Shown: positions 21,855 through 47,142, counted from the first letter of the whole stretch. The stretch is 52,307 bases of DNA, filler included, from Jimgerdemannia flammicorona (GCA_003990765.1; 2 parts of 2 records of this genome joined end to end with filler, not necessarily neighbours in it), one strand, 5' to 3'. Notes: generated by a model not told the origin, from the letters alone. A program made the numbers and translations.

Positions 21855-21914
21855 GGGTATTTTTCGAGTTTCTTAGAGGAAGGCGCAGTTCCTTCTAAAC
21901 CAGTCTAAAGCTCC

Positions 21915-22205
21915 GAATGGACCGGTTTGGTTCCGTTTGGTCCCATTTCGGTTTGGTCCATATTATCACATGAAACTCTATGAGAGGACATCCTGCCATG
22001 CTTCCTCGTACAATGAATTCTGAAATCTGATCTAAAATCTGATCGTACACTGGACGATCGAACGGGACTGGAGAACGTCAACTAGAAGGCGAATGATGAG
22101 CAAACAAGTGGATGATGAGCGAGGAAATATGGTACCATGTGTGTGATCGTGTGTACAATCACATGCCATTATCATGAGCCTGGACCAAACCGGACCGAAA
22201 GTTTT
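21915..22205. mobile_element. Small MITE-like remnant with inverted GGTTTGGTCC / GGACCAAACC repeats
   Basis: Inverted short repeats at 21920-21960 and 22182-22197. No TSD identified. Confidence 0.35.
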
Positions 22206-23510: not shown

Positions 23511-25039
23511 ACATTTTGTATGCGAGAACATTCAATTTGGGGAATGAGTTACTTATGAGTACAACAACATTATGTACACTACACACTACTCTAATATAGT
23601 TATGCTTATATTCATAAGGTTCGACCATGTCGCACTCGTATCTTCCATTTAAATATTCGAGTGTTTCCTATATGTAATGAATGCAATCTATTGAGTGAGA
23701 TCGCCTCAAGGTACCTCGCATTGGAAACGCACTATGTCAAGAATATGTAAATGAGAAATTATATTTTATGGTTAATATTAAATATGCGACTCGCACGTGA
23801 ATTAATATTCGGCATCACCAAGAACAATTGTAAGGAAAAAGGTGTCAGCAAACAGACTGTCCAGCCTGGCGACAAGGGGGACAAGGAGGGTAGTGATGCC
23901 CCCCCTGCATTCAAGCCAGCACAGCACATAGTACGCCCTTTAATTTTTTATGGTCTGAGTTTAAGCCCTGGTCGTATCTACCCGTATGTTGTATCGTAAA
24001 CTTGTGCATTTTGGTATATCTTCCCCTCAATAAAAAAATTTCTAGCAGAGGCCGGTTTTCAGTTACCGTTTTTCGGTCGGGAATGCATTGGCACGGGCCC
24101 GAGGAATCTTATACCAGCCATTGTGATCATGGGTATGTAATCGTGAAGTTGGTATCTCAGAAATGAAGTCACGGTTTACTGGAGTCCGTACTGGATGATT
24201 CGGATCCCAAACAGAAATAAGGACTCGACACGCATTCGAAATCTGGCAGGTAGTTGGCAATACGAATCTCTTTAGTGTGAATCAAAGCGGCGGGAATTGG
24301 CAGTATAAATCTTGTTCAATAGATGTTTCCTCTGTGAGAATCTCGTTGAAGGGATCTCAGCGGAGTGGTCTTGATTGTCAAGGTGTTTATGAACGAGCCA
24401 TCATAGACCTATACTATCGGCTCACGGGTACCTGCGGCTGACATGCCCCGCACTCTGCACTGTGGAGTGCGTTCACAGTAGGGAGACCTCGGGGTCAACA
24501 ATCTCGGTGGGGGGTTTCGTCATTGCAGTAGGTCATTAGAGCAGAGTGTATGTCGTGGCGTGTTGGGCAAGAATGACTGAAATTAACTTACTACGCGTGA
24601 AGGGCAACTTACAAAGGATCACACAAACAGAGCTACACATACAGTATGCAGGTTTCTCTACGTGACCAGGCCTCGCACTCAGCTGATCCTTCAACGTAGC
24701 CGTTGCAAACCCCTAAAAAGGGTTCGTTTGTCAAACACGCGCACCTGAAATTGGTCTTTTCGAGTGCCAAGTCACCTCGCCGCTCTCTTTTCGCCAATGC
24801 TTCGTCTTAACGCTGAACGATACCCTCGCCAATGATTCGTCAACGCTGAACTTCGACTTCGCCGACGTTCTCCAAAATGGAAACCTTGCGGCATATTTAG
24901 CCCAATTTGCTGGTCAATACAATACGCTCATTCGTCATAGGCGTTTTCCGAATAATAATTATATAAACTAATTATCTAGGACTCAGTTCGCAAACGTCGC
25001 CAAATCGCGAGAAAGACTTCGTCTATCTCTGTAAATCCA

Positions 25040-25760
25040 TTACATATCTTAATCCAACGCATGCCTGTCCTTCAAGACGTCCACCCCGCGCACCTTCTGA
25101 AGTTAAGGTATCCTGCCCTAGCCCTATGATGGAGGTTTATAGTACGCTTTCTCCTTCCTCACTGTTATACCTTGGCACCTTACGTTACTTCAAGCACGCC
25201 AACTGAGAAGCTAGATAACGCCTATTCAAACTATCTATAAACCCTACGCAGTCATTCATTTTATATCATAGTGCCGCCCATCGCACTTCCTGAAGATAAG
25301 GTATCCTGCCTTAGCCCTACGATGGAGGTGTACGGAGTATTCATAGTGCGCTTCATCCAGATGGTCCACGACCAGGTCCTGGTGAAGAACCGAAAACACT
25401 GGGGCATCGTGGTGCTTGATTTGCGGTTCCCGAACTCAGAGCCGGAGAGGCTGGTGGCAATCACAGCAAAAGGTCCCGCGTACAGTGGGAACTGTTGACG
25501 AAGCTCAAATCCGTGGAGCGCAGCACTTGCGACCGCCTGAACTGGGCAACCTTCTGGGACTTCGTCGAAGAACGCTTTGACCAGACGAACGAAGAGTTCG
25601 AAAGATTCAAGCTGGAGCTCATTGCGAGGGTGAATAGGGGCCGGCTCAGTTTCGACCACATTATTACAAAGGCGAATCCCCGGTGTACTGGCCTTCGAAG
25701 GACCCCGACATGCGCTTGATTCGCTTTCAGTTCCATTTCAACCAATTTAGGGAATGAGTT
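25040..25760 (+). pseudogene. Paralog 3 (frameshifted, 25270-25750) plus an extra 5' fragment (25040-25140)
   Basis: Homologous to 22977-23510, with deletions and frameshifts near 25480 and 25680. Confidence 0.85.
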
Positions 25761-26107
25761 GCCTATGAGTACAAACAGCATTATGAACAATACACACTAA
25801 TCCAATATAGTTATGTTTATATTCATACCATTCGACCATGTCGCACTTGTATTTCCCACTTAAACACTTGCGTGGCCCCACATATGTAGTGAATACAATC
25901 TATTAAGCAGGATCGCTTCCATGAACTGGAAGGTGCTCAGTATAGGATCGAGTCAAAACATTATGCTGTGAATCTCTATATCTCTACGAGGCTCGCTCTG
26001 AAAACATTATATGTAATTAGAATTTCCCTGTACCACCTTTGTGAATTTATGCTTAATGTTAAAATTATATAAATTAATATCTGTTTTTTTTTTTTTTTTT
26101 AAAAAAA

Positions 26108-26207: not shown

Positions 26208-27791
26208 GTCTTGAGGTGATTACTTCTCTTCCTGTCCAAATGCTAGTGATGACTGGTTCTCCTGTAGTGGCAGAGGTTGGTGTTGTATCAAATGTATCCA
26301 GTTTGACTGTGGGTTCTTGTGAGCTGAAAAGTCACATCAATTTTGAAATCTTCCCAGTTGAGCCCCCAAATGTAACGTGCCAGCTCAATGGAGGCAAATT
26401 ATAAGGTTGGGGGTTGATGTAGTTTGGCTTGAGCCCCCAGTTACTTTGTCAAAAAGTAACAAAATGTTCTAAGATTCCTGAGGTCCTTGGTGTTTAGCAG
26501 TATAATAGTCAAAGCTGGATATCTGCGAGTGATTTCCTTATTGGGACGGTTCTCTGGGTGTAGCGGCGATTTGTGTGAATGGGTTTCCTTCCTGGGTCAA
26601 CTGGGAATGGCAGAATTTGTATGTAGTGCGAGTGGTTTCCTTCTTGAGTGACAATCTTCTGATTTCTGCGTGACGATCTGGTAATTTAGCGGTTCTCCTT
26701 ATGCGGTTTCTGCGTGACGATCTCTGTGTAGCACGATGATCTCCTTATGCGTGACGGTCTGGCAATTTAGCAGTTCTCCTTATGCGGATTTGGCAGATAA
26801 CTTGATTTGGCTCACTGGGAATTGTATGGCGTGGATCCTTCCTAGGCTCACTGGGAATGATGAACAACTTGGATGGCTCTTCTGGGAATGTGGATAACTC
26901 GAAAGTGGTGGATGATGCAGATTTGGCAGGCTTCTTGAAAGCAGCGGCTTAACTGGGAATTAACTCAGATGGATGGCACAGATTTGGCTTCAACTGGGAA
27001 TACAGTGGATAACTCAAAAAACAGCAGGTGACACGGATTCTTCCTGAATCAGCAGACTCTAACTGGGAAACAGATGGCGGCTTGGAAAGGGTCTCTTGGC
27101 AAAGTTGCATTAAAGACTGGCTTCATTTGCATGGGGTTACATCATAGACTGGCTCCACTGTGAAGTTGCGTCAGGAACTGGCTTGAGCAAGGTGGCTTTC
27201 TGGGAATGCGGCAAAGTTCTTCCTTGAAGTTGGCAGGAAACTGGGATTCTTCAGGCTTATCTGGCAAGCAAACCAAAAACGAACTCATTCTTTGTATCGG
27301 AAAGTGGACTGGAGTGGAAAGGGGAAATAAGCTCACAATCTCCTAACAGTGGCTATAGAGTTCCTCTCGAAGTGTGGTAGGCAGACTTGTCTTTTGCTTC
27401 AATTTTGGACTTTTCAGACTGAGGTTTTATTCACTCTCATCTCTGGGGTAATTTATACAAGTTGGTTGCTATCTGGTTGCTATGTAGCTAACTATAGATT
27501 TGCTATCTTCGGTAATATTGGGTGTGTCCTCTGGGTACAGGTGTGTCCACAGGATATGAGTGTGTCCGCAGGACATGAGTGTGTCCGCAGGACATGAGTG
27601 TGTCCGCCAGACATGAGTATGTCCTCAGGATACAGGTAAACAATCCTGATCTGGTGTCTTGGCTAATTATAAGTGTGGTGGGCATGGGTAACTATGATAC
27701 ACTAGAAGTTACATCATACTGAGTAGGTATGCTAATTGTTCGCATCATCTGGCTAAGTTATAATTCGGGTGGTACGTTTTGGTCTGTTACA
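26208..27791 (-). mobile_element. 5' end of a Ty3/Gypsy element: 1.42-kb LTR (26371-27791) and tRNA-Pro-type PBS
   Basis: TGTAAC...GTTACA termini, with minus-strand TATAAA at ~27455 and AATAAA at ~27428. PBS TGGGGGCTCAACTGGGAA (rc 26351-26368) resembles the tRNA-Pro PBS TGGGGGCTCGTCCGGGAT. Confidence 0.85.
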
Positions 27792-28729
27792 ATAGTAACT
27801 AAGTTATAAGTCACTTTTTACAATTATCAAATCTTTTAATATATACTAAAATTTTATTAATTATAAGAATTCTAATATTGTAACATGTCTGGCTCAATGA
27901 AGGCAAATTACAAGGTTGGGGGTTAATATAGTTTGGCTTAAGCCCCCAGTTACTTTGTTAAAAACAACAAAATATTCTTAGTGTTTAGTGGTATAATAGT
28001 CAATCTAGATATCTGTGAGTGATTTCCTTATTGGGATGAGTTCTCTGGGTGTAGCAGCAATTTGTATGTCCTTTCTTCTTGAGTAATTATCTCTGATTTC
28101 TATATAACAATAGAGCCACTCAAAGTTTGATCTGAAAATGATCACATCCATTTTTATCTAGAGTACCTTCCATTTTCATCATAAGTGCCTTCTAATTTTG
28201 GATGGAACTCTAACCCTGGCTGAATTAGGTGAACTCTACAATCTGTAATCTGATTTTAATATTCTTAGACCGATTAGAAAGCCCTTGATAATGTGGTTCA
28301 CAAGCTTAAGAATATTAAATTTAGATGATATTCTGTAAAGTTATGATTGAAAACATCCAAATTTCTATAATATAGCCTTAATTACAGGCCACTAATGATT
28401 TTGGCCTTAATTTGGGTCTGATTAAAGACTACAATTATTAGTGGCCTACAAACAATTTGGCTTATTTCTCAACAACCTATTATCCAGATTTGATGTTCTT
28501 AGGCTCATTAAAAATTCATGAATATTGGGATTGCAGTATACTATATTTTATAAAATTTGGATAATAAGTCATTGAGAAATGAAGCAAAATATCTAAATCA
28601 TACAAATCTATTAAGTGGCCTTAAATTACAGGCCACTAATAATCTCAGCCTTAATTTGGGACTACCATCTTAGTTACTGGCCTCTGATTTAAGGCCAGAA
28701 TTATAATTCAGCTCAGTCAAGTGGCCACT

Positions 28730-29330
28730 GCTATTGGGACGAGCAAACACAGATTATGAGCTTCATTCCATCATATAGCCTTCACATATATTCAAGATTT
28801 AGGTCAAGGCCATGTTCTGTTTCAGAGACTTGACTAGGCCAGTGCCCTCTCAGTACCAATGCTATTATCTTTAAAATAAACAGGGGATGAGTGAAATGTA
28901 CAGATCATGAGCTTCTTTCCACATATAATGCTTTACACAGTTTCTGACATACCTCCAAGAATCATCTCAGTCAATGTCATGTTCTCCTTCAGAGACTTGG
29001 TTAAGGTATATGCCCATCACCACCAATGTCATTTCCTTTAAAATGAATAGGGAATGAGCAAAAATGTACAGATTGTGAGCTTCATTCTATCATACAGCTG
29101 CATGCAATACTTCACAACAGCTCTGACATATATACTTTCGAGATTCAGCTTAGTCAAGGCTGTGTTCTACATTAGAGGCTTGGCCAGTGTGCATGTCCTC
29201 TCATCACAAATGTCATTCTCTTTAAATTGAACAGGGGAAAAATGAAAATACACAGATTGTGAGCCTCATTCTATCACACAGCTACACAAAATGCTTTACA
29301 TACTTTCCTGATTCAGCTTCGTCAAGATAG
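28730..29330 (-). repeat. 3-4 LRR exon+intron units in the left TIR
   Basis: Reverse complement of the units at 34180-37770. Confidence 0.85.
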
Positions 29331-29879
29331 GGTGGATCTTCCAATTCTGTTGGATGGATCTTACTCTAATATTCATGCAGTATTACTTTTATGAGTTCAC
29401 AATGTTACTCAGTCTTGTGGTGGGTGTTTCAGAGTTGGCAGCATCAGGCTTTCTTTTAGGAGTGAGTATTAGTTCAGTTGGAATAAATGTTGGTTTGGCA
29501 GAGATAAATGTTAATTCATCAGTGGTGGGTGTTGGCTTGGCAGGGGAAGGTGTGGTGGGTATTGGTTCCACAGAGGCAGATATTTGTTTGGCATATTTGG
29601 TAGATTTAGTTGATTCAGCAGGGATCTATCACATTCTCTACAATTGTCTGTCCATATTTTATCATCCATATTCCATCCTGTTATCTATTCATATTATATC
29701 TTATTGTCTATTTATTACTCATCATCCAGATTTTATCCTATCATCTATCTATATTCTATTTCAATAGTCTGACTTTCATCTTCTCCTCTACTGTTATGAA
29801 GCAAGTAACATTGTCATAATTATGTTCCTTTTCTGGTCACCCTCGCTATTATTCTCCAGTTCTTGAAATAATATATTTC

Positions 29880-31130
29880 TTTGTACTTCATATTGACCAT
29901 TTTCATCTTCATCTTCATTTTCTTCATCTCCTGTATTTTCTTCTCTAGGTGGTAATATGGTGTCATTTGAGGCTTAAATAAAGTTGTGTAATATCATAGC
30001 TACATAGATGAGATTTACAGCTTTGATGGGATTCCTTGTGCAAAGACTTCTCAAGAGTGGAAAACGTGTCTTCAGTCTATCAAAAGCATGCTCAACAACA
30101 ACATGAGTTTTAGATAGATGCTTGTTAAATACATTTCTAAGATCTCCATGTGGTGGCTTTGCATAAGGACAGATTATATATATTGCACAAGGTTTGTAGC
30201 CATTATCTGTAAGAAAATAGCCATCATTAATAAAATATTTTATATAGTCTTTAGGAAGAAATGATTCATTAAAAATCTTTCTATCATAATAGATGCTGGC
30301 CATCTAATTATAAAGCTGGTGAAATTTGCAAGATGGTCAACTGTTGCCTATACTGCCAGTGCATACTTCATCTTCCTTGATTAGTAAGATGTCTTATTGA
30401 CTATTGATGCATCTTGAAAAGGAATATGAGTACCATCAATTGCACCAATAATACTTGCAAAGCCTGCAATTTGCTGAAATCCTTTATGAACTTCTTGATG
30501 TTCTTTTCCACATGGCCACTGAACATATGTTGCCCTCAGGTTATCAACAATTGCTATCATAATTCTTGTACAAAAGGTTTCAATAGATCCTTCTGCACAG
30601 CTAAAGAGTATTGATAACTCTGTATATATCATCAGTCTACCAAGTTGCTTGAGTAATATTGCAACCTGAATATATACTGGAGTTTGCTGTTTGTTTGATT
30701 GGAACACAGGATGTGACATCAACTTCAATACCAACTTGTCATATGTACTCTGCATCATTCTCAGAACTTTAAGACATTCTCTATCTTCATAGTATGGAAG
30801 CACATTGTTTACCCAGTCTAAAGAGATAGGTATTCTATGTCTTTGAGAAGTGCTATATCAAGATTGAGATAAGTCTGTACTTGCCAATACCTCATTTGCT
30901 AAGAAATGAACATCCATTGTCTCTTCCAGAGTAGTTTTGTCATCATCATTATCATCATCATCATCATTATCATCATCATCATCATTATCATCATCATTAT
31001 CACTATCATCAACACTACTATCAGAAGAACTTTTTTTATTTTCAATAATAGTGTCCATTATAGCTATTACTGACAGACTTACTGCTGCTTGTATGAGGGC
31101 TGGAAGTTTTTTAGAAAGTCAAGGCATCAG
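29880..31130 (-). pseudogene. Harbinger/HARBI1-like DDE transposase (DDE_Tnp_4 type)
   Basis: Motifs LRMMQSTYDKLV, YVQWP, GFASIIGAIDGTHIP, YFLTDNGY, FNKHLSKTHVVVEHAFDRLKTRF and AMILHNFI. Contains stops and a frameshift. Confidence 0.93.
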
Positions 31131-31406
31131 ATTGTCATGCCAGTAGTCACAGTAAGTCAGGATAAGATATTGTGCTATAAGTCAGATCTGAATATAGTGA
31201 TGTGCTGTTAAAGTCAGGATTGTACTAAATTGTGAAAGTCCATATAGGTCAGAATATAGATATTGTCCTGAATCATAGAAGGTCACACAACAGAGATTTC
31301 TGAATTGTAGAGTCTATAAAAGAATATAGAGATCATGCTAAATTGCAGAAGTACTGTAAGTTAGAATATGGATGTTATAATGAATTATAGAGGTCAGTAT
31401 TATGGA

Positions 31407-31749
31407 TAGTGCTCCCAAATGAATCGAATTAATTTGAAATAAATCGAATTGAGGGTCATTTGAATCAAATCAAATTGAGGGTCCAATTCGAACACTATTT
31501 TTAGAAATATAATAGCTCGATGAATACATGTCCAAATTCAACGATTGTTAGCTTGTTAGATTCCCCTATATAAGGGGAATCTAACAAGCTAAAGATTATT
31601 GAATTTGGATATGTATTCATCGAGTCATTAAATTTCTCAAAATAGAGTTCAAATCAGACCTCAAATTGAATTGGCCCTCAATTCAAATTGATCTGAATCG
31701 AATTGAATTTAGGTCCAATTTGAATTGATTTGATTCATTGAGAGCACTA
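31407..31749. mobile_element. 343-bp fold-back hAT-type MITE
   Basis: TAGTGCTC...GAGCACTA termini and an 8-bp TSD ATTATGGA (31399-31406, 31750-31757). Near-palindromic, centred at ~31570. Confidence 0.92.
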
Positions 31750-32009
31750 ATTATGGAAGTCATACTGTAAGTCAGAATATGGATGTTGAAATGAATTGTG
31801 AAGGTTGGTGTTGCGGGTGTCATACTATAAGTCAGAATATGGCTATTGTGTGGAATTGTTGAAGTTGGCATTGTTGGTGTCATATTGTAAGTCAGAAAAA
31901 CGTTAGCATTGTGCTGAAGTTGAAATACAGGCATTGGTAATTGGACTCTGTCAGATCGGACTCTAAATTGTTATACATGTAAATAGTGCTGGTCAGAGAT
32001 TTGATTTGA

Positions 32010-32465
32010 CAGCAGCAAAAAATATCCAACCCTGCAACACACCCGAAGCTTTACATAAACGTGAATATCTCCAAGAATACACATCAGAATTTAATAATTT
32101 TTATTGCGCTGGATTTGCCATGTAAAGGTGAATCCAACAAGCTAAAGTACATCCAAATCAGATATATATTCATGGAGTTATTAACATTTTTGTAGTTGGG
32201 TCGGGGATGGATTTATTCTCTGTCTCTGCATCATACTGAACCTGATAATAAACCTGTCCCCGACCCAACCACAGATAATGTTAATAATTCCATGAATATA
32301 CACCCGATTTGGATGTACTTTAGCTTGTTGGATTTACCTTAACATAGTGAATCCAGTATAAGAAAATTATTAAATTCTGATGGGTATTTGTAGAGTTATT
32401 TATATTTATGTGAAGGATCAGTTGAGCTGCAAGGTCAGCTTTTTTTTTGGGTTGGATATTCTGCT
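32010..32465. repeat. ~450-bp fold-back between the divergent Harbinger ORFs
   Basis: Arms at 32020-32217 and 32247-32460 are reverse complements (for example GAATCCAACAAGCTAAAGTACATCCAAATC / GATTTGGATGTACTTTAGCTTGTTGGATT). Confidence 0.85.
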
Positions 32466-32694
32466 GGATTATGTCAATTATGTACACAGGTCAGGTCAGG
32501 TTGTAGAGTTCTAGTTTAGTTCTGACTTACAATATGATGCCCACTGCCACAATTCAGTATGATATGACTTAACAAGACTTCTATAATTCAGCACAATATC
32601 CACATTCTGACATATACTATACAACTTCTACAAATTTCAGCACAAATACAGAAATCAGCTATATAGTACAAAACCCAGTTTATATTTGAATCTG

Positions 32695-34000
32695 GATGTG
32701 TACCAGTACTTCCTCAGTCTGGGACAGATGATGGGTCAGCTATCTCTACCACTGCCTCCTTGGGAACAGAATTGAATACTATTACCATCAATGATAATGA
32801 AAGTGAACTAACTCAAACACTACATTAAGGACAAAAGTGATTAAGAGACAAGGGAAAGGGAAAAGAAAAGGTTACATTATCTAAGAAACCTAGAGCTACT
32901 CCCTCCACCACATCTGCAATCAACACTACTATACCATGCAATCCAGTTGAAGCCTTACAAAAAATATATGATCCAGATGATCTAGATGTAGAAGATGAGA
33001 AAGAAAGAAATAGCAGTGATGCTGATGAACCTGCAGACAACATGCTTCGACCAACATCATCTATCATCTCTAATACACCTGATCTTTGACCTGTTGAAAC
33101 CAGACTGTAGCCTAAAGAACTACTTCATAGGCTTCTTGAACATATTCAGATAAACTTTATAAAGTATCAAATGTCTAAGGATATACTATATATACAGTGG
33201 ATACAGCAAGAGAGACTTACTTGCAATAAGGGCAGTGTCTGGTGCAAAGTATACATACCATATGCTTGAGACCCATTATTTTGTTCGAAAGCATAATAAG
33301 GAATCAGGAAATGAATCATTGTGCTGGGAATGATATGATACCATGCATGATATCTTCAGATATCTTCCAAACCTCTTCCCACATCTGCTGGTAGATTCAA
33401 CAGATGTAACAATCACAAATGAAGATACATCAAAGAAAAAGGCTGAGCAGAATATTGCTGAATCTATTCATGAGTTGACCAAGGCAGTGCAAAACTTGGA
33501 GAAGTTGATGGGTACGAAGATAGAAGGAGAGGAGGATAGAAAGAGAAAATGCGATCAGCTTACCTATGATTTGGAATTATGGTGCATAAAAGTATTAGAG
33601 AAGAATGCAGAAACAAGAGAGAAGAATGTGGAGCCAAGAAGACAGAGAGCAGAGGAAAGGGCAAGACGGAATAAATGCAGAAACAAAAGAAAGATGTATG
33701 CTATTGAGATGAGATATAAAAGTCAAAGTATTATAGAAGAAGAAGCTACAATCTCCAGTAAAAGCAGTGAGAGAGAGACAGAGGAAGAAAATTAGACTGA
33801 GGAAGATGAGACTGAGAAAGAAAATGAGACTGAGGAAGAAGATGAGATCAAGGAAGAAAATGAGACTGAGGAAGAAGGTGAGACTGAGAAAGAAAATGAG
33901 ACTGAGGAAGAAGATGAGACCAAGGAAGAAAATGAGACTGAGGAAGAAGATGAGACCAAGGAAGAAAATAGACAATGATAGAGAGATGAATGAGGAAATG
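32695..34000 (+). pseudogene. Harbinger second ORF: Myb/SANT-like (trihelix) DNA-binding protein with coiled coil and Glu-rich 18-bp repeats
   Basis: Translation reads *PKELLHRLLEHI..W..ERLTCNKGSVWCKV..LETHY..NKESGNESLCWE*YDTMHDIFRYLPNLFPHLLVDS. GAGACTGAGGAAGAAGAT repeats lie at 33775-33970. Confidence 0.75.
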
Positions 34001-34179
34001 AGAGACAAAATAAAATACATACATATATATGATAGAGATGAATACAGAGAGACAATTAATGGGCAATAGGATATAATATAGTTGAATAATTGGATAAAAT
34101 ATAAAGGATAAATAACAATTAATGGTGGAGGATAAGAGATGAACAAGGATGGGTGATGGAATCTGGACATTTTAAAGGG

Positions 34180-37100
34180 TTAACCAATCTAAATCTCAAA
34201 GGTATTTCATATGTGAAGCATTGTGTGCAACTGTATGATGGAAATAAGTCTCATGATCTATGTATTCTCACTCATCTCTGGTTCATTTTTAAGGTAATAG
34301 CATTGGTGACAAGGAGGCATATGCCCTAGCTGAGTATCTGAAGCAGAACATGAGCTGAATCTCAGAGATATGTCAGAACTGTATGAAGCATGTTGTGTGC
34401 AGCTGTGTGATGGAATGGAGCTCATGATCTGTGTGTTTTCACTCATCTCCTATGGGAATAGCATTAGTGATGAGAGGTATGTGTCCTAGCCAAGTATCTG
34501 AAGTAGAACACAAGCTGAATCTCAGAGGTATATCAGAACTGCATGAAGCATTGTATACAGCTGCATAATGAAATGAAGCTCATGATCTGTGCATTTTCTC
34601 TCATCTCCTATGAGAATAGCATTAGCAACGAGGGGCATGCACCCTAGCCAAGTCTCTAAAGTAGATTTTAATGGGAATAACACTGGTGGCAAGGAGCACA
34701 TGCCTTAGCCAAGCCTCTGAAGCAGAACATGACCTTGACTAAGCTGAATCTCTGAGGTATATCAGAACTGTGTGAAGCATTGTATACAGCTACATGATGG
34801 AATGAAGCTCATGATCTGTGTGTTTTCACTCATCCTCTGTTCATTTTTAAAGCAAATAGTATTGGTGATGAAGTAGCATGTGCCCTGAGTCTCTGAAGCA
34901 GAACATGACCTTGACTGAGCTAATTCTTAGAAGTATATCAAACTGTGTGAAATATTGTGTGCTGCTGCTTGATGGAATGAAGCTCGTGATCTGTACATTT
35001 TTGCTCATCCCCTGTACAATTTTAAAAAGAATGACATTGGTGGTGAGAGGGTACATGCCCTACTGAGTCTCTGAAGCAGAACACGACCTTGACTAAGCTG
35101 AATCTTTAAGGTATATCAGAACTGTGTGAAGTATTGTATGCAGCTATACAATAGAATGAAGCTCATGATCTGTGCATTTTCACTCATCCCCTGTTCATTT
35201 TTAAAGGAAATAGTATTGGTGATGAAGTAGCATGTGCCCTAACTGAGTCTCTGAAGTAGAACACAATCTTGGCTGAGCTGATTCTCAGAGACATGTCAGA
35301 ACTGTATGAAATATTGTATGCTGCTGTATGATGGAATGAAGCACATGATCTGTATATTTTCACTCACCCCCTGTTCAATTTTAAAGGGAATGACATTGGC
35401 AGTGAGAGAGTACATGCCCTACTGAGTCTCTGAAGCAGAACATGACTTTGATGGAGCTGAATCTCTGAGGTGTATCAGAACTGTATGAAGTATTATATGC
35501 AGCTGTATGATAGAATGAAGCTCATGATCTGTGCATTTTCTCTCATATTCTATGGGAATAGCATTAGCAATAAGGGGCATATACCCTAACTGAGTCTCTA
35601 AGGTAGATTTTAATGGGAATGACACTGTGCCCTAGCCAAGCCTCTGAAGTAGAACACCACCTTGACTGAGCTGAATCTCTGAGGTATATCAGAACTGTGT
35701 GAAGCATTGTGTGTAGCTGTACAATGGAATGAAGCCCATGATCAGTGTGTTTCCACTCATCCTCTGTTCATTTTAAAGTGAATAGCATTGGTGACAAAGT
35801 AGCACACACCCTAACTGAGTCTCTGAAGCAGAACACAACCTTGATCAAGCTGATTCTCAGAGGCATGTCAGAACTGTGTGAAACATTGTATACTGCTGCA
35901 TGATGGAATAAAGCTCACAATCTGTACATTTTTACTCACCCCCTGTTCAATTTTAAAGGGAATGACATTGGCAGTAAGAGGGTATGTACTCTACTGAGTC
36001 TCTGAAGCAGAATATGACTTTGACTGAGCTGAATCTCCAAGGTATGTCAGAACTGCATGAAGCATTGTGTACAGCTGCATGATGGAATGAAGCTCACAAT
36101 CTGTGTGTTTTCTCATCTTCTATGGGAATAGCATTAGCAATAAGGGGCATATGCCCTAGCTGAGTCTCTAAGGTAGATTTTAATGAGAATGACACTGTGC
36201 CCTAGCTGAGCCTCTGAAGTAGAACACCACCTTAACCAAGCTGAATCTCTGAGGTATATCAGAACTGTGTAAAGTATTGTGTGCATCTGCACAATGGAAT
36301 GAAGCCTATGATCTATGTATTTTCACTCATTCCCCATTCATTTTAAAGTAAATAGCATTGGTGATAAAGTGGCATGTGCCCTAACCAAGTCTCTGAAGCA
36401 GAACACAACCTTGACTGAGCTAATTCTCAGAGGTATATCAGAACTGTATGAAACATTGTATACTGCTGTGTGATGGAATGAAGCTTGTGATCTGTATATT
36501 TTCACTCATCCCCTGTTCAATTTTAAAGGGAATAACATTGGTGGCGAGAGAGTACATACCCTACTGAGTCTTTAAAGCAGAATATGACCTTGACTGAGCT
36601 GAATCTTTGAGGTATATCAGAACTGTGTGAAGCAGTATATGCAGCTGTGCAATGGAATGAAGCTTATGATCTGTACATTTTCACTCATCCCCTGTTCATT
36701 TTTAAAGGGAATAGCATTGGCAATGAGAGGCATGTGCCCTAGCTGAGTATCTGAAGCAGAACATAAGCTGAATCTTGGAGATATATCAGAACTGCATGAA
36801 GTATTGTGTGCAGCTGCATGATGGAATGAAGCTCAAGAACTGTGTGTTTTCTCTCATCTCCTATGGGAATAGCATTAGTGATGAGGGGCATGCACCCTAG
36901 CCAAGTCTCTAAAGTAGATTTTAATGTGAATGACACTGGCAGTGAGGGAGCACATGCCTTAGCCAAGCCTCTGAAGCAGTACACAACCTTGACCAAGCTG
37001 AATCTCCAACATATATCAGAACTGTGTGAAGCATTGTGTGTAGCTGCATGATGGAATAAAGCTCATGATCTGTGCATTTTCACTCATTCCCTGTTCATTT

Positions 37101-37770
37101 TTAAAGTGAATAGCATTGGTGATAAAGTGGCATATACCCTAACCAAGTCTTTGAAGCAGAACACAACCTTGACTGAGCTGATTTTCAGAGGCATGTCAGA
37201 ACTGTGTGAAACATTGTGTGCTGCTGTATGATGGAATGAAGCTCATGATCTATATATTTTCACTTATCCCCTGTTCAATTTTAAAGGGAATGATATTGGT
37301 GGCAAGAGGGTACATGTCCTACTGAGTCTCTGAAGCAGAATATGACCTTGACTGAGCTGAATATTTGAAGTATATCAGAACTGTGTGAAGCATTGTGTGT
37401 AGTTGTATAATGGAATGAAGCTTATGATCTGAGTGTTTTGCTCATCCCCTGTTCATTTTAAAGGAAATAGCATTGGTAACAAGGGGGCATGTGCTCTAGT
37501 CAAGTTTCTGAAGCATAATACGACCTTGGCCAAGCTGAATCTCCTGTATGTCAGAACTGTGTAAAGTATTGTATGTAGAAAGAAGCTTACAATCTATGTA
37601 TTTCACTTATCCCCTGTTTATTTTAAAGATAATAATATTGGTACTGAGAGGGCACATGGCCTAGTTGAGTCTCTGAAGCAGAACATGGCCTTGACCTAAA
37701 TCTCAAATATATGTAAAGGCTGTATGATAGAATGAAGCTCATAATCTATGTTTACTTATCCCAATAGCAG
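34180..37770 (+). repeat. Array of ~20 units (~179 bp), each one 84-nt RI-like/NLRC3-like LRR exon plus one ~95-nt intron
   Basis: For example exon 35779-35862 reads NSIGDKVAHTLTESLKQNTTLIKLILR. Consensus is NxIGxEGAxALAESLKQNTTLTELNL. Donors are GTATRT or GCATGT and acceptors are TTTTAAAG. Confidence 0.93.
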
Positions 37771-39989
37771 TGGCCACTTGACTGAGCTGAATCATAATTC
37801 TGACCTTAAATCAGAGGCCAGTAACTAAGATGGCAGTCCCAAATTAAGTCTGAGATTATTAGTGGCCTATAATTTAAGGCCACTTAATAGATTTGTATGA
37901 TTTAGATATTTTGCTTCATTTCTCAATAACTTATTATTCAAATTTTGTAAAATATAGTATACTGCAATCCCAATATTTATAGATTTTTAATGAGTCTAGG
38001 AACATCAAATCCAGATGATAGGTTGTTGAGAAATAAGGCAAATTGTTTGTAGGCCACTAATAATTATAGCCTTTAATCAGATCTAAATTAAGGCTGAAAT
38101 CATTAGTAACCTATAATTAAGGCTGCATTATAGAAATTTGGATGTTTTCAATCATAACTCTACAGAATATCATTCAGATTTAATATTCTTAAGCTTGTTA
38201 GAACCACATAATCAAGAGTTTTCTAATGGGCCCAAGAATATTAAAATCAGATTACAGGTTGTAGAGTTCACCTAATTCAGCCAGGGTTAGGATTCTATCC
38301 AAAATTAGGTGCTCATAATGAAAATGAAAGGCACTCTAGATAAAAATAGACATGATCATTTTTGGATAGAACTTTGAGCAGCTCTAATCTTCTTATATAG
38401 TATGGCCAGTTTCTTATACATGAAAATCTGGCAATTTGGTAATTTTCTTCTTGGGTCAACTGGGAATTTTCAGGAATTATACTGGCAGTGGACTCTTCTG
38501 GGAATAGCAGATGGTGTAGATTCTTCTGAATCAGGTTCACCAGGAATGGATGAATAACTTGGTGGCAGATAACTCAGATAACTCAGATGATACAGATAAC
38601 TTGGATGACTCAGATATCATGGATAACTCAGTTAACTAGGATGTTGCAGATTCTTTCTGAATTGGCAGAGTTCTGGGAATAATAACTCAGGTGGCATGGA
38701 TTCCTCCTGAATCAGTGGCTTCATTTAACTGGAAATACAGATACCTTGAAAATGGTGGCTTTAATTAGGAAATAACTCAGATGGTGCAGATTCTTCCTGA
38801 ATCAGTGGCTTTGACTGGAAAAGGGTCTCTTGGCAAAATTATGTTGAAGACTGGCTTCATTTGTATGATGGATCACTGCAAAGTTGCATCAGAAACTGGC
38901 TTGAGCAAGGTGGGTTTCTGGGAATGTGGTAAATAACTTGGAAACAGTGGCAAAGTTCTTTCTTGAACTTGGCAGCAAACTTCAGGCTTATCTACCAAGC
39001 AAACCAAAAATGTAACAAACTCTTTGTATCAGAAAGCAGATTGGAGTGGAAAGGAATACTTTGCTCACAATCTCCTAGCAATGGCTGTAGAGTTCCTCTC
39101 AAAGTGTAGTTGGCAGACTTGACTTTTGCTTTGGATTCAATTCTGACTGAGGTTTATTCACTCTTGTCTCTGGGGTAATTTATATAAGTTTGGTTGCTAT
39201 CTAGTTGCTACATTGCTAACTATAGATTGCTAACTATGGTAAGTATTCCTTGAGAGTATCATATATCTTGATGGTGTACCTTGAGGATATAGTGTATCTT
39301 CAGAGTATAGGTAAACATACTGTTTCTGATATCTCTGGCTAAATATATAAGTTGGCACAGTAAAGCAGTCTTGGTTACTTAGTGTACTAGATATAGTATG
39401 TGGCTAATTTATGATTTTGATAGTACAATTCTATTGCTCATCACATCAGCCCCCACTAAAGAATGGTCTGCCCTCAGACAATTCTTTAGTCATCATTCCA
39501 ATATGCATAAGCATCTTCAGCATCAATATCTGAACTAGTATCTTCATTTGGGTCAGAGTCACTCTACTTAATAGGTTCTTCTTCTTCTTCTAGAAACAGG
39601 ATTGACATGGTTGATGATGCTCTAGCAAGTGGCAGAATTCATATTCTGAATGTCATTTAGAGGAAATTGTGCTTGTGTCAAGACTGGGACATTTCATTTG
39701 TAGATTGTGTACAATCTGTCTACAGTAGTAGTATTTTTCCAGATGAGACCAGTGGGGTTTCTGATATAGGTCAGGTCTGCTGCTGGGAGGTTCTGCAACT
39801 GTTCTCCAATTATATAGTAGTCCTGTAGCTGGTGAACTTGTTGTAAATTTCTGGCCAAAGTAAGGTTCTCTTGATGGGTCTGGATTCACTAACGGGGGTT
39901 TCCATTGGCTTGTTGAAATTGTAGAAGAGAAACCAAGAGTGATTGGAATGAACTCAGAACAAGGGTCTGAAGGCACTGATCAATTGTCT

Positions 39990-40748: not shown

Positions 40749-43700
40749 CTATCCAATCCCCACTGGGGGGGCCCTCCCTACTTCCTCATGAACGAAAATC
40801 ACCCTTTCACCAACTACCCCCACTCTCCCCCCACTTTGCCCACAGATTTTCTCTACCAAGCAGTGCCTCCGACCACCCCACATCCCCCAACCCAGCCACC
40901 AGCCCGTTAAGGTATCTTCCATAAGCCTATGCCATCGCAGCAGCCGGTCCCCCAAGCTCTGCCTCCACCCATCCTCAAAAACAAATAGCCAATGACTGGC
41001 CAACCTCACCCAAATTGCCAACGCCCAACCCAGAGTAAGCCACTCCTTCCCTATCCCCCCTACCAATCTAACCCTCAAGTCCTCCCATTGTCCCTGTGCT
41101 TCATCACTCCTACCCCATACCCCTAAGCGATCCCCAATTGTCTGCCAAAAATCCCCCAACACCTCACACTCTCCTAGCCAATGTTCCAGCGTCTGTATAT
41201 AACCCCCCTCCTGCCCTACATTATAGCACTCCTCACAGTCGAAGCAACCCCCTACAACCAGGTGCCCTGAGCGAAAATTGAGCATAACATTCCTCCACAG
41301 CATGCGCCACCAGACCACCCAGTACTTTGGTGGCAGCTATACTCTCGCTGCAGCACTCTAGGTCCAAACACTATGCCAGTTCCACTTCTCACCAATTCCA
41401 ACTCCTTGCCAACCGCTAGGCCACAGATCCTGGCCTGGTCCCCTTTGGCATTCCATTCCATCACCAATGTCAAACTCAACTAAGGGAGCACCCCCCAGCA
41501 GTATACGGTCGCATCTTCACATCGCTGGGTCCCAATCCTCCTCACCTTCATTTCCCTGCCAATGAATGCCAATGCAGTGTGCTCCTTCGGCAATTCCCCA
41601 CCAAAATCCTTTATATTGTAGTTGGGCAGTGTTCGGAAGCCCAACCAAGGAGAGGAGATCACCAGTTGAGCCCCTTGGCGATGCCTGTCTCTCCCATATC
41701 TTCTGTAACAGAGGAACCCATCCACCTCCTCTCAACTCCACCACCCTCTTCAGCCACCATGCTCTCAAGCAGTGTAACCATTTTGGGAAGTCAATCAGCC
41801 CAAGACCGCCTCTTGACACTGGTAGGGACAAGGTCTCCCAACTAATCTGACTCTACCTGCCAGCCCAAATCCATCCCTTCCCCGACTTCAACAATCTCTT
41901 CACTACCCAGGCTGGGAAGTCCAGATGATATGCTAGGTACCACAACTTTGGCAGCCAGTAGACATTCAAAATTGAGACCCGCCCTGCCAGAGAAAAATGT
42001 CTTCCCCCCCAACTCCGCAGAGCCTCCTCCCAGATTCCAATCCTCTGCTCCCACCAAAGCTTGGGCAAAACTGACCCATAGACTGACAAGTAGATACCTA
42101 AGTACTGCACTGCTTCACTGGTGGGGACAATTGTTCCTATAACCTCCCCTCCCACCAGGCCATTACCTAGCACCATCGTCTCACACTTATGCCAATTCAG
42201 CTTAGCTCCAGAATGTTCCTCATACCACTCCATGGTCCTCTTGAGCTCCTCAACATCCGCAATTGAACCCAAGCCCACCACCATGTCATCAGCAAATGCC
42301 CCAACCTTCCATCCTATGTCAAAGACAGAGAGCCCCACTATCCTCTGCCTAATCCGGTCCATAAGTGGTTCCAGGGAAAGAGCATACAAAATGGGGGACA
42401 ATGGATCCCCCTGGGGTACTCCCCTTCCCAAGGGGAACGCTACCCCTCTATGTCCATTATACATGAGCGCAGCCCTACTCCCTTCCAGTAGGCTGACCAT
42501 TGTTGACCGGAATTGATGCGGTACCCCCATTCTATCCAAAACTTTCTCCAGCCAGACTCTCTGCACCCGGTCGTAAGCCTTCTCCTGGTCCAAGAAAACT
42601 AGACACCCATCTAGTCCACATGCCCTCACCCCTTTGATGATGCCATGCACCCAGGCAGTGCCATCCCTGATGAGCCGACCACCCACAAATCCCCTCTGCT
42701 CAACACCCACGACTTGCTGGGCCACCTTCTGTAGTCTCGCCACCACCACCTTAGTTACCAACTTTCTGTCCATATCTAGCAGCATTATCGGCTGCCAGTT
42801 CCTCCAATCCTCCCGCCTTCCTTTGTTTTTGTAGAGCAGCATCACCAGCCCAAGGTCCTGTTCCCCCACCCATCTACCTGTCCATAGAATAAGGTCACAC
42901 ATCGCTGTCATCTCTCCCATCACCCCTGGGACTTCAACCATTCACTTCCAAAAGTCCCAGGGCAGCCCATCCTCCCCAGGTGCTGTACCCGACGTTGTTG
43001 CGGCAAGAACCTGGTGGATCTCATCCTTCTTTACAGGCATCACCAGGTCCCCTAGCCCTTCAACTTGTGGTGGGTGCCAATCCTCCAATGTTCATTCAAT
43101 TGAAGCTGCATCCACCCCACCTTCCTCCTCACTCCACAATCCACCCCATCTCTCCTTCAGCGATCCAAGAATGTCCTGTACACCATGCACCAGTACACCA
43201 TCAGGGTCCAATACCCCTTCCCACTGTTGCTGGCCCCGCCTTGCCCGAAGGGCTCTTATAAGAAGCTTGGAAGGCCTCTCCCCTTCCTCCAGATCCTGCC
43301 AACAAAGCCGTGCTGCTAAGCTCTGTACCCTTGCCTCTTCCTCCTCCCACAGCACCTGTTGAAGTTCCCCAACCTCCATTTTTGCCCTTATTAATCTCCA
43401 ATCTCCTTCGCCCTCCAACATCATCAGCCTTGCCCACTCCTCCAGGAGCCTTGTCAATCTAGCAGAGGCCCAGCACACTCTTCATTTTCACTGCTTCCCT
43501 GCCTCCTTGCCAGCCTCCTTCCAGTAAATCCTGGCCATTTCCTTCATCCTCATCCACCGAGTCCCAACTGTGGCCCCTTTCTGCCTCCAGTTCTCTACCT
43601 GCAGCTGAATGTCTTTAGCCCACTCATCCCACTGGTTCTTGTCATCTAACAAAGAGGAATTGAGGCGCCAATGTCCAGGCCCATCCCCACTTCCCCCAAA

Positions 43701-44405
43701 GCACCCCTGTCCCAAAAGCCCCCAGTGATCCGACCATGGACACCATTCCACCTCCAATGATTTCCAAACATCTAGTCCCCAGCAGCAGGCTGTCAAAATC
43801 CAATCGATTCTAGTCCCCAGACCCGCTGCCCAATGGGTATAGACCCTCCTACTCCCCCAGCACTCCCGTCCAGCATCCAATAGTGTACTCAGCCACTCCA
43901 CTTCCTCCCATGCCACCAGCCCTCCACTCCTGCTCTCAGCATCTCGGCCTCCATCTGATCTATCCAGCATTATATCCCAAACCATATTGAAATCTCCCCC
44001 TAGCACATCCACCCCAGCCTCCGCAAGTAATCCACTCTCCTGTAAGCCTTTCACCCAATTGACTCTATCACTCTGTACTGCAGGGCAGTAGCAGGAACCA
44101 ACCGTAATTGGCTCCCAGCCCACCCGAATCCACTCTCCCCAGACCAGTCTCTCCCCCCAGCACTGTACATTCTGTATCTCCCCTCAGCCTTTCCTAACTA
44201 AAATCCCAACCTTGTCCTTCCAAATCACCACACCTCCCCATTCCTTCGTCCATTCTAACCTATTAGAGTCATCTTCACACTAGACATCCTGCAAGAGGAA
44301 GAGATTGGCCTCCAATCCCTTCATCCAAGTAAAAATGTTCCTACATCAAGAAGCACCCCGTAACCCATTCACGTTCAAAGAGAAAATGTTGGTTGTACTG
44401 TTCAT
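40749..44405 (-). pseudogene. LINE ORF2: APE endonuclease, reverse transcriptase and C-terminal Cys/His region
   Basis: Motifs MNSTTNIFSLNVNGLRG, GGDFN, TRIDWI, WSDHW, PGEDGLP, LDQEKAYDRV, GVPQGDPLSP, FADD, YLGI, GGLGL and CFDC..TLEHWLGEC. Several C>T stops and frameshifts. Confidence 0.95.
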
Positions 44406-44438
44406 ATTGATGATATATGTGATGTTGTCAATCTACCT

Positions 44439-47032: not shown

Positions 47033-47142
<110 letters not shown>

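What the first reader, a model, noticed from the sequence alone, without database searches (positions are those of the whole stretch)
28112..38385. Harbinger transposon whose TIRs and internal array are built from LRR exon-intron cassettes
Seen in sequence: about 20 units of [84-nt, 28-codon RI-like LRR exon + ~95-nt intron] lie at 34180-37770, all with the same phase-1 splice boundaries. Another 3-4 inverted units lie in the left arm, so LRR cassettes are part of the ~1.2-kb TIR. Both sets read outward, downstream of the Myb/SANT gene (plus) and the transposase gene (minus). Established knowledge: one-exon-per-LRR architecture with symmetric phase is typical of NLRC3/NLRP-type LRR domains and permits exon shuffling. 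Inference: the element captured part of a host LRR receptor gene and amplified it. It may spread LRR cassettes, serve as a donor pool for receptor diversification, give spliced Myb-LRR fusions, or produce hairpin small RNAs against host LRR genes. Many units here are frameshifted (83 nt), so this copy is not coding.
Basis: partly seen in the sequence, partly recalled or inferred. Interest (0 to 1): 0.8.

Follow-up and report, generated by a model that had tools for sequence, protein, structure and literature searches.

The report
Dead Harbinger transposon carrying LRR-cassette satellite
This is a decayed 10-kb cut-and-paste (Harbinger-type) transposon whose long inverted ends hold copied exon-plus-intron pieces of a leucine-rich-repeat gene that later multiplied into a non-coding tandem array, which is a neat but not unprecedented case of a jumping gene picking up host gene fragments.

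Summary
The element spans 28112-38385 and is flanked by a perfect 3-bp duplication, AAT. It carries a broken DDE_Tnp_4 (Harbinger) transposase on the minus strand. It holds 26 LRR exon segments, 84 nt and phase 1, each followed by a ~95-nt intron: 23 read outward in the right arm and 3 in the left arm. None lies elsewhere in the 52-kb window.

The exon profile matches NOD2-type (RI-like, LRR_6) repeats. The array is not coding: only 3 of 26 exons are intact. Shared lesions define unit subtypes that repeat as a ~570-bp higher-order unit, so the expansion happened after inactivation. Within subtypes, exons vary as much as introns.

The best reading is gene-fragment capture (transduplication) into long TIRs, as in C. 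elegans Turmoil-1. One arm then expanded like a satellite, as in Tetris and Galileo.

The "Myb/SANT" identity of the second gene could not be verified. The source gene, other copies, splicing and small RNAs could not be tested, because no genome or sequencing runs were available. The nearest named transposase relatives are all Glomeromycotina fungi. Interest is moderate to low, and the case is a new variant of known kinds.

The parts
28109..28111 (.). Left target-site duplication AAT
   Evidence: The same triplet lies at 38386-38388. The joined flanks align across the junction to a paralogous flank copy at 26540-26707.
28112..28736 (+). Left terminal region of the TIR (non-LRR). It holds AGGCCACTAAT motifs in direct and inverted pairs.
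   Evidence: It is 90.0% identical (564/627) to the reverse complement of 37763-38385. The motif occurs 5 times in the window, all in the two terminal regions, against 1.07 expected.
28737..29333 (-). Left-arm LRR cassettes: an intron fragment, three exon+intron units and an inner truncated exon tail. They read outward, on the minus strand.
   Evidence: nhmmer hits 28794-28942, 28949-29126 and 29132-29303, with E values from 2.4e-30 to 3.5e-45. The exons are 70, 83 and 84 nt long and all carry stops.
29633..29785 (-). Spacer homologous to the right-arm spacer
   Evidence: 67.5% identity over 154 nt to 33992-34133 in inverted orientation, E=5e-10
29974..31118 (-). Harbinger transposase pseudogene, with one in-frame TGA at 30858-30860 and a frameshift between 30303 and 30381
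   Evidence: ORF 29974-30303 hits DDE_Tnp_4 at E=2e-13. ORF 30381-30857 has 823 relatives at E<=1e-3, the best at 4.5e-27. Nine of 11 relatives tested carry DDE_Tnp_4.
31119..32660 (.). Central region between the two divergent genes. It holds ~60-bp repeats and two foldback hairpins (31468-31672 and 32017-32447).
   Evidence: (inverted pairs I4, I5 and I16) and the sequence
32667..33978 (+). Decayed second gene, ending in an acidic 18/36-bp repeat at 33775-33973. It is the presumed Harbinger accessory gene, and Myb/SANT identity is not verified.
   Evidence: ORFs are, and the TRF rows. There is no Pfam hit, even when read through with X. The atlas gave no usable hit.
34178..34201 (+). Internally deleted first LRR exon remnant between acceptor-like and donor-like contexts. 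It marks the inner boundary of the right array.
   Evidence: Sequence. The matching inner exon tail in the left arm lies at 29300-29333 (weak hit E=0.82; read from the sequence).
34212..37762 (+). Right-arm array of 23 LRR exon segments with introns. Subtypes A, B, C and D+E are arranged as a higher-order repeat of about 570 bp.
   Evidence: Higher-order copies 35538-35837 and 36108-36407 are 89% identical, and A-B dimers are 84-88% identical.
36349..36432 (+). The only exon that is 84 nt, free of stops and flanked by AG...GT. It translates as NSIGDKVACALTKSLKQNTTLTELILR.
   Evidence: Two further open 84-nt exons (35779-35862 and 37107-37190) have GC in place of the GT donor.
37763..38385 (+). 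Right terminal region of the TIR (non-LRR)
38386..38388 (.). Right target-site duplication AAT

Best explanation
The region is one old, inactive autonomous copy of a PIF/Harbinger DNA transposon (28112-38385), inserted into a ~1.45-kb tandem repeat.

Its ancestor picked up a piece of a gene encoding ribonuclease-inhibitor-type leucine-rich repeats, by transduplication. That piece held several consecutive 84-nt phase-1 exons with their ~95-nt introns. The piece came to lie in both subterminal regions in mirror orientation, so it became part of unusually long TIRs.

The captured cassettes lost coding capacity. Afterwards the right-arm block expanded, by unequal exchange or replication slippage, into a higher-order tandem array of about 20 units. 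The array now evolves as a non-coding satellite that rides with the element.

Shown here: the anatomy, the LRR identity, the loss of coding capacity, the order of lesions before amplification, and the lack of constraint on exons.

Inferred: the capture event, its direction from gene to transposon, the mechanism of expansion, and that the array was already present when the element was mobile.
For: Harbinger identity:
- DDE_Tnp_4 hit at E=2e-13.
- 823 phmmer relatives, and 9 of 11 tested carry DDE_Tnp_4.
- Perfect 3-bp TSD, and TIRs.

LRR identity:
- A profile of 7 exon translations hits the NOD2 LRR (5irl) at E=3.7e-5, followed by tropomodulin and leiomodin LRR caps.
- 56 database hits, of which 51 carry PF13516.

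Exon-intron origin:
- The exons are exactly 84 nt and phase 1.
- They have a polypyrimidine-AG acceptor and a G|GTATGT donor.

Cassettes are confined to the element: there are no nhmmer hits outside it.

The mirror arrangement includes the same intron fragment and outermost cassette in both arms. Both arrays begin with a truncated exon tail, and homologous spacers lie inside them.

Non-coding state:
- Only 3 of 26 exons are open and 84 nt, and only 1 of 26 also has AG...GT.
- All 5 B units share the same 1-nt deletion.
- All 3 C units share a 10-nt deletion.
- All 4 D+E units share the same fusion.
- These types recur in order, with higher-order copies 84-89% identical.

No constraint after amplification:
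- Exon against intron p-distance is 0.144 against 0.134 for A-A pairs and 0.149 against 0.113 for B-B pairs.
- Variable sites are 51/167 in exons against 46/190 in introns, p=0.19.

Sign of a formerly functional, diversifying source: between subtype consensuses, exons differ about twice as much as introns. A-B is 19/83 against 9/95 (p=0.022) and B-D is 17/52 against 11/80 (p=0.016).

Precedent: Turmoil-1, a Harbinger with 760-bp ITRs holding an exon-intron-exon fragment of rsp-2 on both sides (PMC2572040, whole text read).
Against: - Only one copy could be examined, so it is not shown that the array belonged to the mobile element rather than arising in this copy after insertion.
- The cassette in the mirrored part of both arms argues for the former, but gene conversion between arms could also produce it.
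- No parent gene was found. The best LRR matches are only 57-65% identical.
- The sense orientation of the cassettes downstream of both genes would also fit a lost coding role.
- Second codon positions vary somewhat less (11/56) than first (20/56) and third (20/55) positions, p=0.094. A faint residue of past coding constraint cannot be excluded.
- The second gene could not be identified as Myb-like.
- The TSD AAT differs from the TWA triplets I recall as typical for this superfamily.
Confidence: 0.72

Rival explanations
1. The LRR cassettes were once a working gene part of the transposon itself. They could have formed a third gene, or a C-terminal LRR domain spliced onto the accessory protein or the transposase. 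This copy would simply be a dead remnant of that state.
For: - The cassettes lie downstream of, and in the same orientation as, both genes.
- The phase-1 symmetric exons would splice in frame.
- Three exons are still open.
- Between subtypes, exons diverge faster than introns, as expected of a once selected, diversifying LRR.
- Second codon positions are slightly less variable, p=0.094.
Against: - The array starts with a truncated exon on both arms, and no donor linking it to the upstream genes is visible.
- Amplified subtypes carry shared frameshifts, deletions and fusions.
- None of the 9 full-length relatives with a Pfam hit, out of 11 tested, shows an LRR domain.
- If one arm was copied to the other, the sense orientation on both arms follows automatically, so it carries only about one coin-flip of information.
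Confidence: 0.08
2. The array has a non-coding function for the element or the host. Transcription through the inverted cassette blocks could give long hairpin RNA and small RNAs that act on LRR genes. Alternatively, the repeats could serve as subterminal binding or spacing sites for transposition.
For: - The inverted cassette blocks are 66-85% complementary over hundreds of bases, and the TIR is 84.5% complementary over 1217 nt.
- Introns are better conserved than exons between subtypes.
- Homologous cassettes with conserved intron-coded residues appear in 5 unnamed environmental proteins.
Against: - There are no expression or small-RNA data.
- The expansion is one-sided (about 20 units against 3), which is not expected for a required symmetric binding array.
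- The candidate binding motif AGGCCACTAAT lies in the non-LRR terminal part, not in the cassettes.
- Complementarity between most left and right units is only ~70%.
Confidence: 0.1
3. The cassette block is not transposon cargo. It would be a remnant of a host LRR gene rearranged by inversion or duplication around an inserted transposon, or an assembly artefact.
For: - The window is a nest of repeats.
- The inner two left units are not positional counterparts of the right-arm units.
Against: - The cassettes lie inside ~625-bp non-LRR terminal sequences that are 90% mirrored and end at a perfect 3-bp TSD.
- The flanks on either side continue one another when compared with a paralogous repeat copy.
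- There is no LRR unit, NACHT or other gene part outside the element.
Confidence: 0.03

Closest known systems
Turmoil-1 of C. elegans (Harbinger superfamily; Sela et al. 2008, PMC2572040, whole text read)
   Same: - It has a Harbinger transposase.
- Its ITRs are unusually long (760 bp), against the usual 25-50 bp.
- The ITRs on both sides contain a transduplicated host gene fragment with exons and an intron.
- The captured part is not under selection and has mutated splice sites.
   Different: - Here the cargo is a repeat-domain cassette (one LRR per exon).
- It was then amplified to about 20 tandem units in one arm, with higher-order structure.
- The parent gene is not identified.
- The host is probably a fungus rather than a nematode.
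- Only one copy was seen.
Tetris foldback element of Drosophila virilis and Galileo copies with extended TIRs (PMC4079207 and PMC4168063; abstracts read)
   Same: - The TIRs of these DNA transposons contain internal tandem repeats (~220 bp in Tetris).
- The repeats vary in number and can seed satellite-like arrays.
- The ends are better conserved than the inner TIR.
   Different: - Those repeats are not known to derive from coding exons.
- The elements belong to other superfamilies (foldback and P).
- No arrays outside the element were seen here (window only).
One-LRR-per-exon shuffling in Ectocarpus ROCO genes (Zambounis et al. 2012, PMC3341825; passages read)
   Same: - Each LRR is encoded by one exon of constant length and symmetric phase.
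- Inactivated and inverted non-coding LRR exon copies with conserved splice sites occur.
- LRR loci are proposed as a reservoir of diversity.
   Different: - The Ectocarpus exons are 72 nt and 24 residues, of a different LRR class, and lie inside the genes' own introns rather than in a transposon.
- Here the exons are 84-nt RI-type repeats carried between transposon ends.
Pack-TYPE transposons of plants (Gisby and Catoni 2022, PMC8903248; search listing and start of abstract only)
   Same: They are DNA transposons that capture and carry fragments of host coding DNA.
   Different: - They are described as non-autonomous plant elements.
- Here the carrier is an (ex-)autonomous copy with both genes, and the cargo became a tandem array.

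Membership tests
PIF/Harbinger superfamily | DDE_Tnp_4-type transposase | tested here: met
   - Pfam PF13359 at E=2e-13 on ORF 29974-30303.
- The N-terminal ORF has 823 relatives, and 9 of 11 tested carry DDE_Tnp_4.
- The gene is broken by a stop and a frameshift.
PIF/Harbinger superfamily | 3-bp target-site duplication | tested here: met
   AAT on both sides. The 3-bp length is as stated in PMC2572040. The triplet is not the TWA type that I recall as typical.
PIF/Harbinger superfamily | Terminal inverted repeats | tested here: met
   The terminal 625 bp is 90% mirrored. The TIRs are far longer than the 25-50 bp given as usual in PMC2572040.
PIF/Harbinger superfamily | Second gene for a Myb/SANT-like DNA-binding protein | tested here: inconclusive
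   - A decayed plus-strand gene lies at the expected place.
- No Myb family hit was found on its ORF pieces or on read-through with X.
- The atlas gave no usable hit.
- A tryptophan-spaced pattern is visible by eye only.
PIF/Harbinger superfamily | Multiple dispersed copies or evidence of mobility | not testable with these tools
   - No genome is held.
- No sequencing run was listed.
- There is no second copy in the window.
RI-type (LRR_6) leucine-rich repeats | 28-residue repeat LxxLxLxxNxIGDxGAxxLxxxLxxNxx that matches known RI-like LRR domains | tested here: met
   - The exon profile hits the NOD2 LRR at E=3.7e-5.
- 51 of 56 database hits carry PF13516.
- Single-unit ORFs alone gave no Pfam hit (0 of 3), as expected for one short repeat.
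NLR (NACHT-LRR) receptor gene as the source | Near-identical host gene with NACHT and the same exon-intron cassette | not testable with these tools
   - No genome is held.
- Only 10 of 56 LRR hits carry NACHT, and the best identity is 57-65%.
- Other hits pair LRR_6 with kinase or MYND domains.
Transduplication (gene-fragment capture by a DNA transposon) | Host-gene-derived sequence with exon-intron structure inside the element's ends | tested here: met
Transduplication (gene-fragment capture by a DNA transposon) | Identified parent gene outside the element, showing the direction of transfer | not testable with these tools
Transposon-borne satellite (Tetris-like) | Tandem repeats inside the TIR that vary in number between arms | tested here: met
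   3 units on the left against 23 exon segments on the right, with higher-order copies 84-89% identical
Transposon-borne satellite (Tetris-like) | Independent long arrays of the same repeat outside the element | tested here: not met
   None in this 52-kb window. The genome-wide state is unknown.

The most novel reading that the evidence does not exclude
A Harbinger lineage of soil fungi (Glomeromycotina-like) routinely carries RI-type LRR exon-intron cassettes in its arms and moves them around the genome.

The cassettes would then serve as a mobile reservoir for exon shuffling or gene conversion into fast-evolving LRR genes. Alternatively, they would serve as hairpin sources of small RNAs that regulate those genes.

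Under this reading, the homologous intron-conserving cassette arrays seen as read-through ORFs in unnamed environmental proteins would be further members.
Probability: 0.07. Interest if true: 0.75.

Novelty: new variant of a known kind. Interest (0 to 1): 0.35.

Why it matters
- It adds a second clear case, after Turmoil-1, of a Harbinger element whose long inverted ends are built partly from captured exon-intron gene pieces. It is probably the first from a fungus-like host.
- It joins two phenomena that are usually described apart: gene-fragment capture, and the birth of a tandem array inside transposon ends.
- The cargo is a symmetric-phase one-repeat-per-exon LRR cassette, the kind of module that can be shuffled without breaking a reading frame. 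A mobile carrier of such modules would therefore bear on how LRR receptor repertoires diversify.
- In this copy, however, the evidence points to neutral passenger DNA.

Tried and rejected
- **Whole-genome search:** no genome is held for this window.
- **Sequencing runs:** none was listed, and no RNA holder was listed.
- **Earlier findings of this scan:** nothing for this genome, for look-alike stretches, for the unit, for the transposase or for the full word set.
- **Metagenome contig scans:** an intron pattern that matches 9 of the window's units and a 53-letter exon-to-intron pattern that matches 4 units each gave 0 matches.
- **Word-indexed search with the transposase ORF:** 189 candidates, none scored. 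The exhaustive phmmer search then found relatives.
- **Myb/SANT test:** Pfam on 9 + 4 ORF pieces and on 2 read-throughs with X gave no Myb family. The atlas gave no usable hit.
- **Pfam on single-unit ORFs:** no LRR hit. This was replaced by the exon profile against PDB.
- **Rfam and tRNA scans of the window:** nothing.
- **Host identification:**
  - The reverse transcriptase of the neighbouring retroelement has close relatives (62-80% identity) only in unnamed contigs.
  - The atlas gave only a weak 'commonest Chordata' label for the nearest cluster.
  - I give more weight to the 6 of 6 named transposase relatives being Glomeromycotina.
- **Alternative termini at 28100/38400:** these share the CTATATAA words. 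I rejected them because the flanking triplets would then be TTT and TAT, and because the paralogous flank copy continues through the AAT junction.
- **Dating the insertion from arm divergence:** rejected, because TIRs need not be identical at insertion.
- **Literature:** searches found no paper describing a Harbinger element with LRR cassettes. That covers only the held library.
Full report
**What is there**

Tandem Repeats Finder reports periods of 179/180 and 359 nt over 34296-37696. The inverted-repeat scan pairs 28300-28841 with 37657-38198 at 92% and extends the pairing outwards to both ends.

I built a profile from 8 regular units and ran it over the whole window with nhmmer.
- It gave 28 hits at E<1e-3, the best at 1.6e-59.
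- All hits lie in 34212-37762 on the plus strand or 28737-29303 on the minus strand.
- Nothing lies elsewhere in the 52,307 bases.

Both blocks read towards the nearer end of the element.

AAT sits directly outside on both sides.

The flanks are themselves copies of a ~1.45-kb repeat: 26371-26625 resembles 27879-28106, and 27156-27520 resembles 38874-39247. A paralogous copy at 26540-26707 aligns across the joined flanks. This fits an insertion with a 3-bp duplication.

**The unit**

Each full unit is an 84-nt segment (2 nt, 27 codons, 1 nt) followed by a ~95-nt spacer.
- The segment is preceded by TTCATTTTTAAAG and followed by GTATGT or GTATAT.
- This is a phase-1 exon with a short intron, so consecutive exons would splice in frame.
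- The best exon translates as NSIGDKVACALTKSLKQNTTLTELILR.

A profile of seven stop-free exon translations (alignment A1) was searched against the PDB.
- It hits the LRR domain of NOD2 (5irl/5irm) at E=3.7e-5 over several repeats.
- The next hits are tropomodulin and leiomodin LRR caps.

A profile of four window ORFs that contain an exon (A2) found 56 proteins at E<=0.01 among 3500 candidates.
- 51 carry PF13516 (LRR_6) and 10 carry NACHT.
- The top hit, P0001, is a Death-NACHT-LRR protein of 1825 residues from an unnamed contig.
- Identities to the window exon are 57-65% for the long hits, so no parent gene was found.

Single-unit ORFs alone give no Pfam hit (0 of 3).

**The array is not coding, and it grew after it died**

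There are 26 exon segments.
- 5 are 84 nt long and 3 of those are free of stops: 35779-35862, 36349-36432 and 37107-37190.
- Only 36349-36432 also keeps both AG and GT.
- 16 of 26 keep the AG acceptor and 13 of 26 keep the GT donor.

The units fall into subtypes defined by shared lesions.
- All five B units have the same 1-nt deletion, making them 83 nt.
- All three C units share a 10-nt deletion.
- The four D units lack the acceptor tract and are cut and fused to an E unit at the same point.

These types recur in the order D+E, A, B, with C added in places. Higher-order copies are 84-89% identical, for example 35538-35837 against 36108-36407 at 89% with a spacing of 570. The lesions therefore predate the amplification.

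Within subtypes, exons are no better conserved than introns.
- The p-distance is 0.144 against 0.134 for A-A pairs and 0.149 against 0.113 for B-B pairs.
- Variable sites are 51/167 in exons against 46/190 in introns, p=0.19.
- By codon position they are 20/56, 11/56 and 20/55, p=0.094.

**A trace of the source gene**

Between subtype consensuses the exons differ about twice as much as the introns.

| Pair | Exon differences | Intron differences | p |
|---|---|---|---|
| A-B | 19/83 | 9/95 | 0.022 |
| A-D | 15/53 | 10/80 | 0.040 |
| B-D | 17/52 | 11/80 | 0.016 |

This is what a recently expanded, diversifying LRR domain would leave behind. Constraint on the introns is an alternative I cannot exclude.

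**The arms**

Taken piece by piece:
- The terminal non-LRR 625 bp is 90.0% identical.
- The outermost cassette is 84.7% identical.
- The two inner left units are 70.9% and 72.5% identical to their positional partners. They match other right-arm units better (80.6% and 74.2%).

The strictly mirrored TIR is therefore about 830 bp and contains one cassette plus an intron fragment. Further in, paralogous cassettes follow.

The symmetry extends further inward.
- Both blocks begin on the inside with a truncated exon tail: 34178-34201, and about 29300-29333.
- A spacer further in is also homologous in inverted orientation: 29785-29633 against 33992-34133, 67.5%, E=5e-10.

The simplest history is one capture, then copying of one arm to the other, then expansion of the right block by some 17 units.

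The terminal parts hold five exact copies of AGGCCACTAAT in direct and inverted pairs, against 1.07 expected. These are the only copies in the window. They are candidate protein-binding sites, which is inference.

**The genes**

On the minus strand, ORFs 29974-30303, 30381-30857 and 30858-31118 form one transposase gene. It is broken by an in-frame TGA and a frameshift.
- The C-terminal piece hits DDE_Tnp_4 at E=2e-13.
- The 158-residue piece, which ends in GAIDGTHIPF, has 823 relatives at E<=1e-3 (43 at <=1e-10; best 4.5e-27 at 50% identity) in the exhaustive search.
- Nine of 11 relatives tested carry DDE_Tnp_4. The two without a hit are short.

Sixteen relative clusters were looked up and six bear organism names. 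All six are Glomeromycotina: Dentiscutata erythropus, Rhizophagus irregularis, Gigaspora rosea, Funneliformis geosporum (twice) and Gigaspora margarita.

Six of the 13 named LRR hits are also Mucoromycota. The host is thus probably a fungus of that alliance. This is not established: the neighbouring retroelement's relatives are unnamed, and the atlas label for it was Chordata.

The plus-strand gene at 32667-33978 is heavily broken and ends in an acidic 18/36-bp repeat.
- It sits where a Harbinger accessory gene is expected.
- No tool recognised a Myb/SANT domain in it.
- By eye there is a tryptophan-spaced pattern with a TAG in place of the first W, but that is a resemblance recalled from memory, not a test.

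**Relatives of the cassette elsewhere**

Five unnamed proteins (P0003, P0011, P0013, P0014, P0034) are open readings straight through exon and intron of homologous cassettes.
- After the LRR they continue with G/C-MSEL, which is the window's GTATGTCAGAACTG read in frame.
- P0034 residues 4-63 align to 37043-37204 at 58% identity, covering 64 nt of intron, the exon and 14 nt of the next intron.
- Their internal periods are 52, 76 and about 59 residues. The exons are the same but the intron lengths differ.

Related exon-intron cassettes therefore exist as tandem runs in other, unknown sources. Whether they sit in genes or in transposons cannot be told.

**What could not be done**

- No genome is held for the window.
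- No run was listed.
- Two metagenome scans with unit patterns found nothing.
- The scan's earlier notes hold nothing for this genome or sequence.
- As a result, copy number, presence of the array in other copies, the parent gene, splicing and small RNAs all remain open.

**Comparison with what is known**

- **Turmoil-1.** It is a C. elegans Harbinger with 760-bp ITRs. On both sides they contain an exon-intron-exon fragment of rsp-2 and a fragment of cpg-3, with decayed splice sites. The same paper states that Harbinger ITRs are usually 25-50 bp with 3-bp duplications (PMC2572040, whole text).
- **Tetris and some Galileo copies.** Tetris has ~220-bp tandem repeats inside its TIRs that seeded satellite arrays. 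Some Galileo copies have TIRs extended by internal tandem repeats (abstracts).
- **Ectocarpus ROCO genes.** These show one LRR per 72-nt exon, with inactivated and inverted exon copies and proposed reservoirs of diversity (passages).

The present element combines the first two phenomena with a cargo of the third kind. My six literature searches found no description of a Harbinger with LRR cassettes. That speaks only for the held library.

**Verdict**

- Best explanation, confidence about 0.72: a dead Harbinger copy with transduplicated RI-type LRR cassettes in long TIRs, one block of which expanded as a non-coding higher-order satellite.
- Novelty: a new variant of known kinds.
- Interest: 0.35.
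- The bold reading, a transposon lineage that spreads LRR modules or makes hairpin small RNAs against LRR genes, is not excluded. I put it at about 7%.

Noticed in passing
window 40749-46656 (minus strand): A G+C-rich non-LTR retrotransposon lies here, with GC of 0.51-0.57 and GC skew down to -0.48. It has an RVT_1 ORF (41853-42941, E=3.8e-31), a weak endonuclease match (43488-44183) and a 476-residue upstream ORF. Its closest relatives (62-80% identity) are all on short unnamed contigs.
   Followed up: partly
window 47037-47138: There is a perfect run of 102 T. On the minus strand it reads as poly(A), just upstream of the retroelement's 5' side. It may be the tail of another minus-strand retroelement.
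   Followed up: no
window 20248-25822: Three copies of an ORF-bearing repeat lie 2.2-2.7 kb apart and are 80-89% identical (for example 20506-20698, 23243-23435 and 25488-25680). They have long open frames on both strands and no Pfam family.
   Followed up: no
window 16299-17242: An ~940-bp array of 23/46/69-bp tandem repeats with 62-71% matches.
   Followed up: no
window 31468-31672 and 32017-32447 (inside the element): Two foldback hairpins lie here, with arms of 100 nt at 82% and 85-90 nt at 76-86%. They share a similar AACAAGCTAAAG-containing core, read by eye. They sit between ~60-bp repeats at 31759-31897 that recur inverted near 32500-32640. They look like nested MITE-like insertions, or a structured bidirectional promoter region between the two genes.
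   Followed up: no
window 28386-28640 and 37858-38061: AGGCCACTAAT occurs five times exactly, in direct and inverted pairs, only in the two terminal regions of the element (1.07 expected by chance). These are candidate binding sites for the element's proteins.
   Followed up: partly
window 26371-28106 and 38874-39247: The element sits inside a ~1.45-1.5-kb tandem repeat whose copies are 80-82% identical. One copy serves as a paralogous 'empty site'.
   Followed up: partly
proteins P0003, P0011, P0013, P0014, P0034 (unnamed sources): These are open reading frames that run through both exon and intron of homologous LRR cassettes, with internal periods of 52, 76 and ~59 residues. Related exon-intron tandem runs therefore exist in other, unknown organisms.
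   Followed up: partly
window 29389-29625 (minus strand): A Pro/Thr-rich open frame built on a G-rich short repeat lies between the transposase 3' end and the left LRR block. It has no counterpart in the right arm.
   Followed up: no
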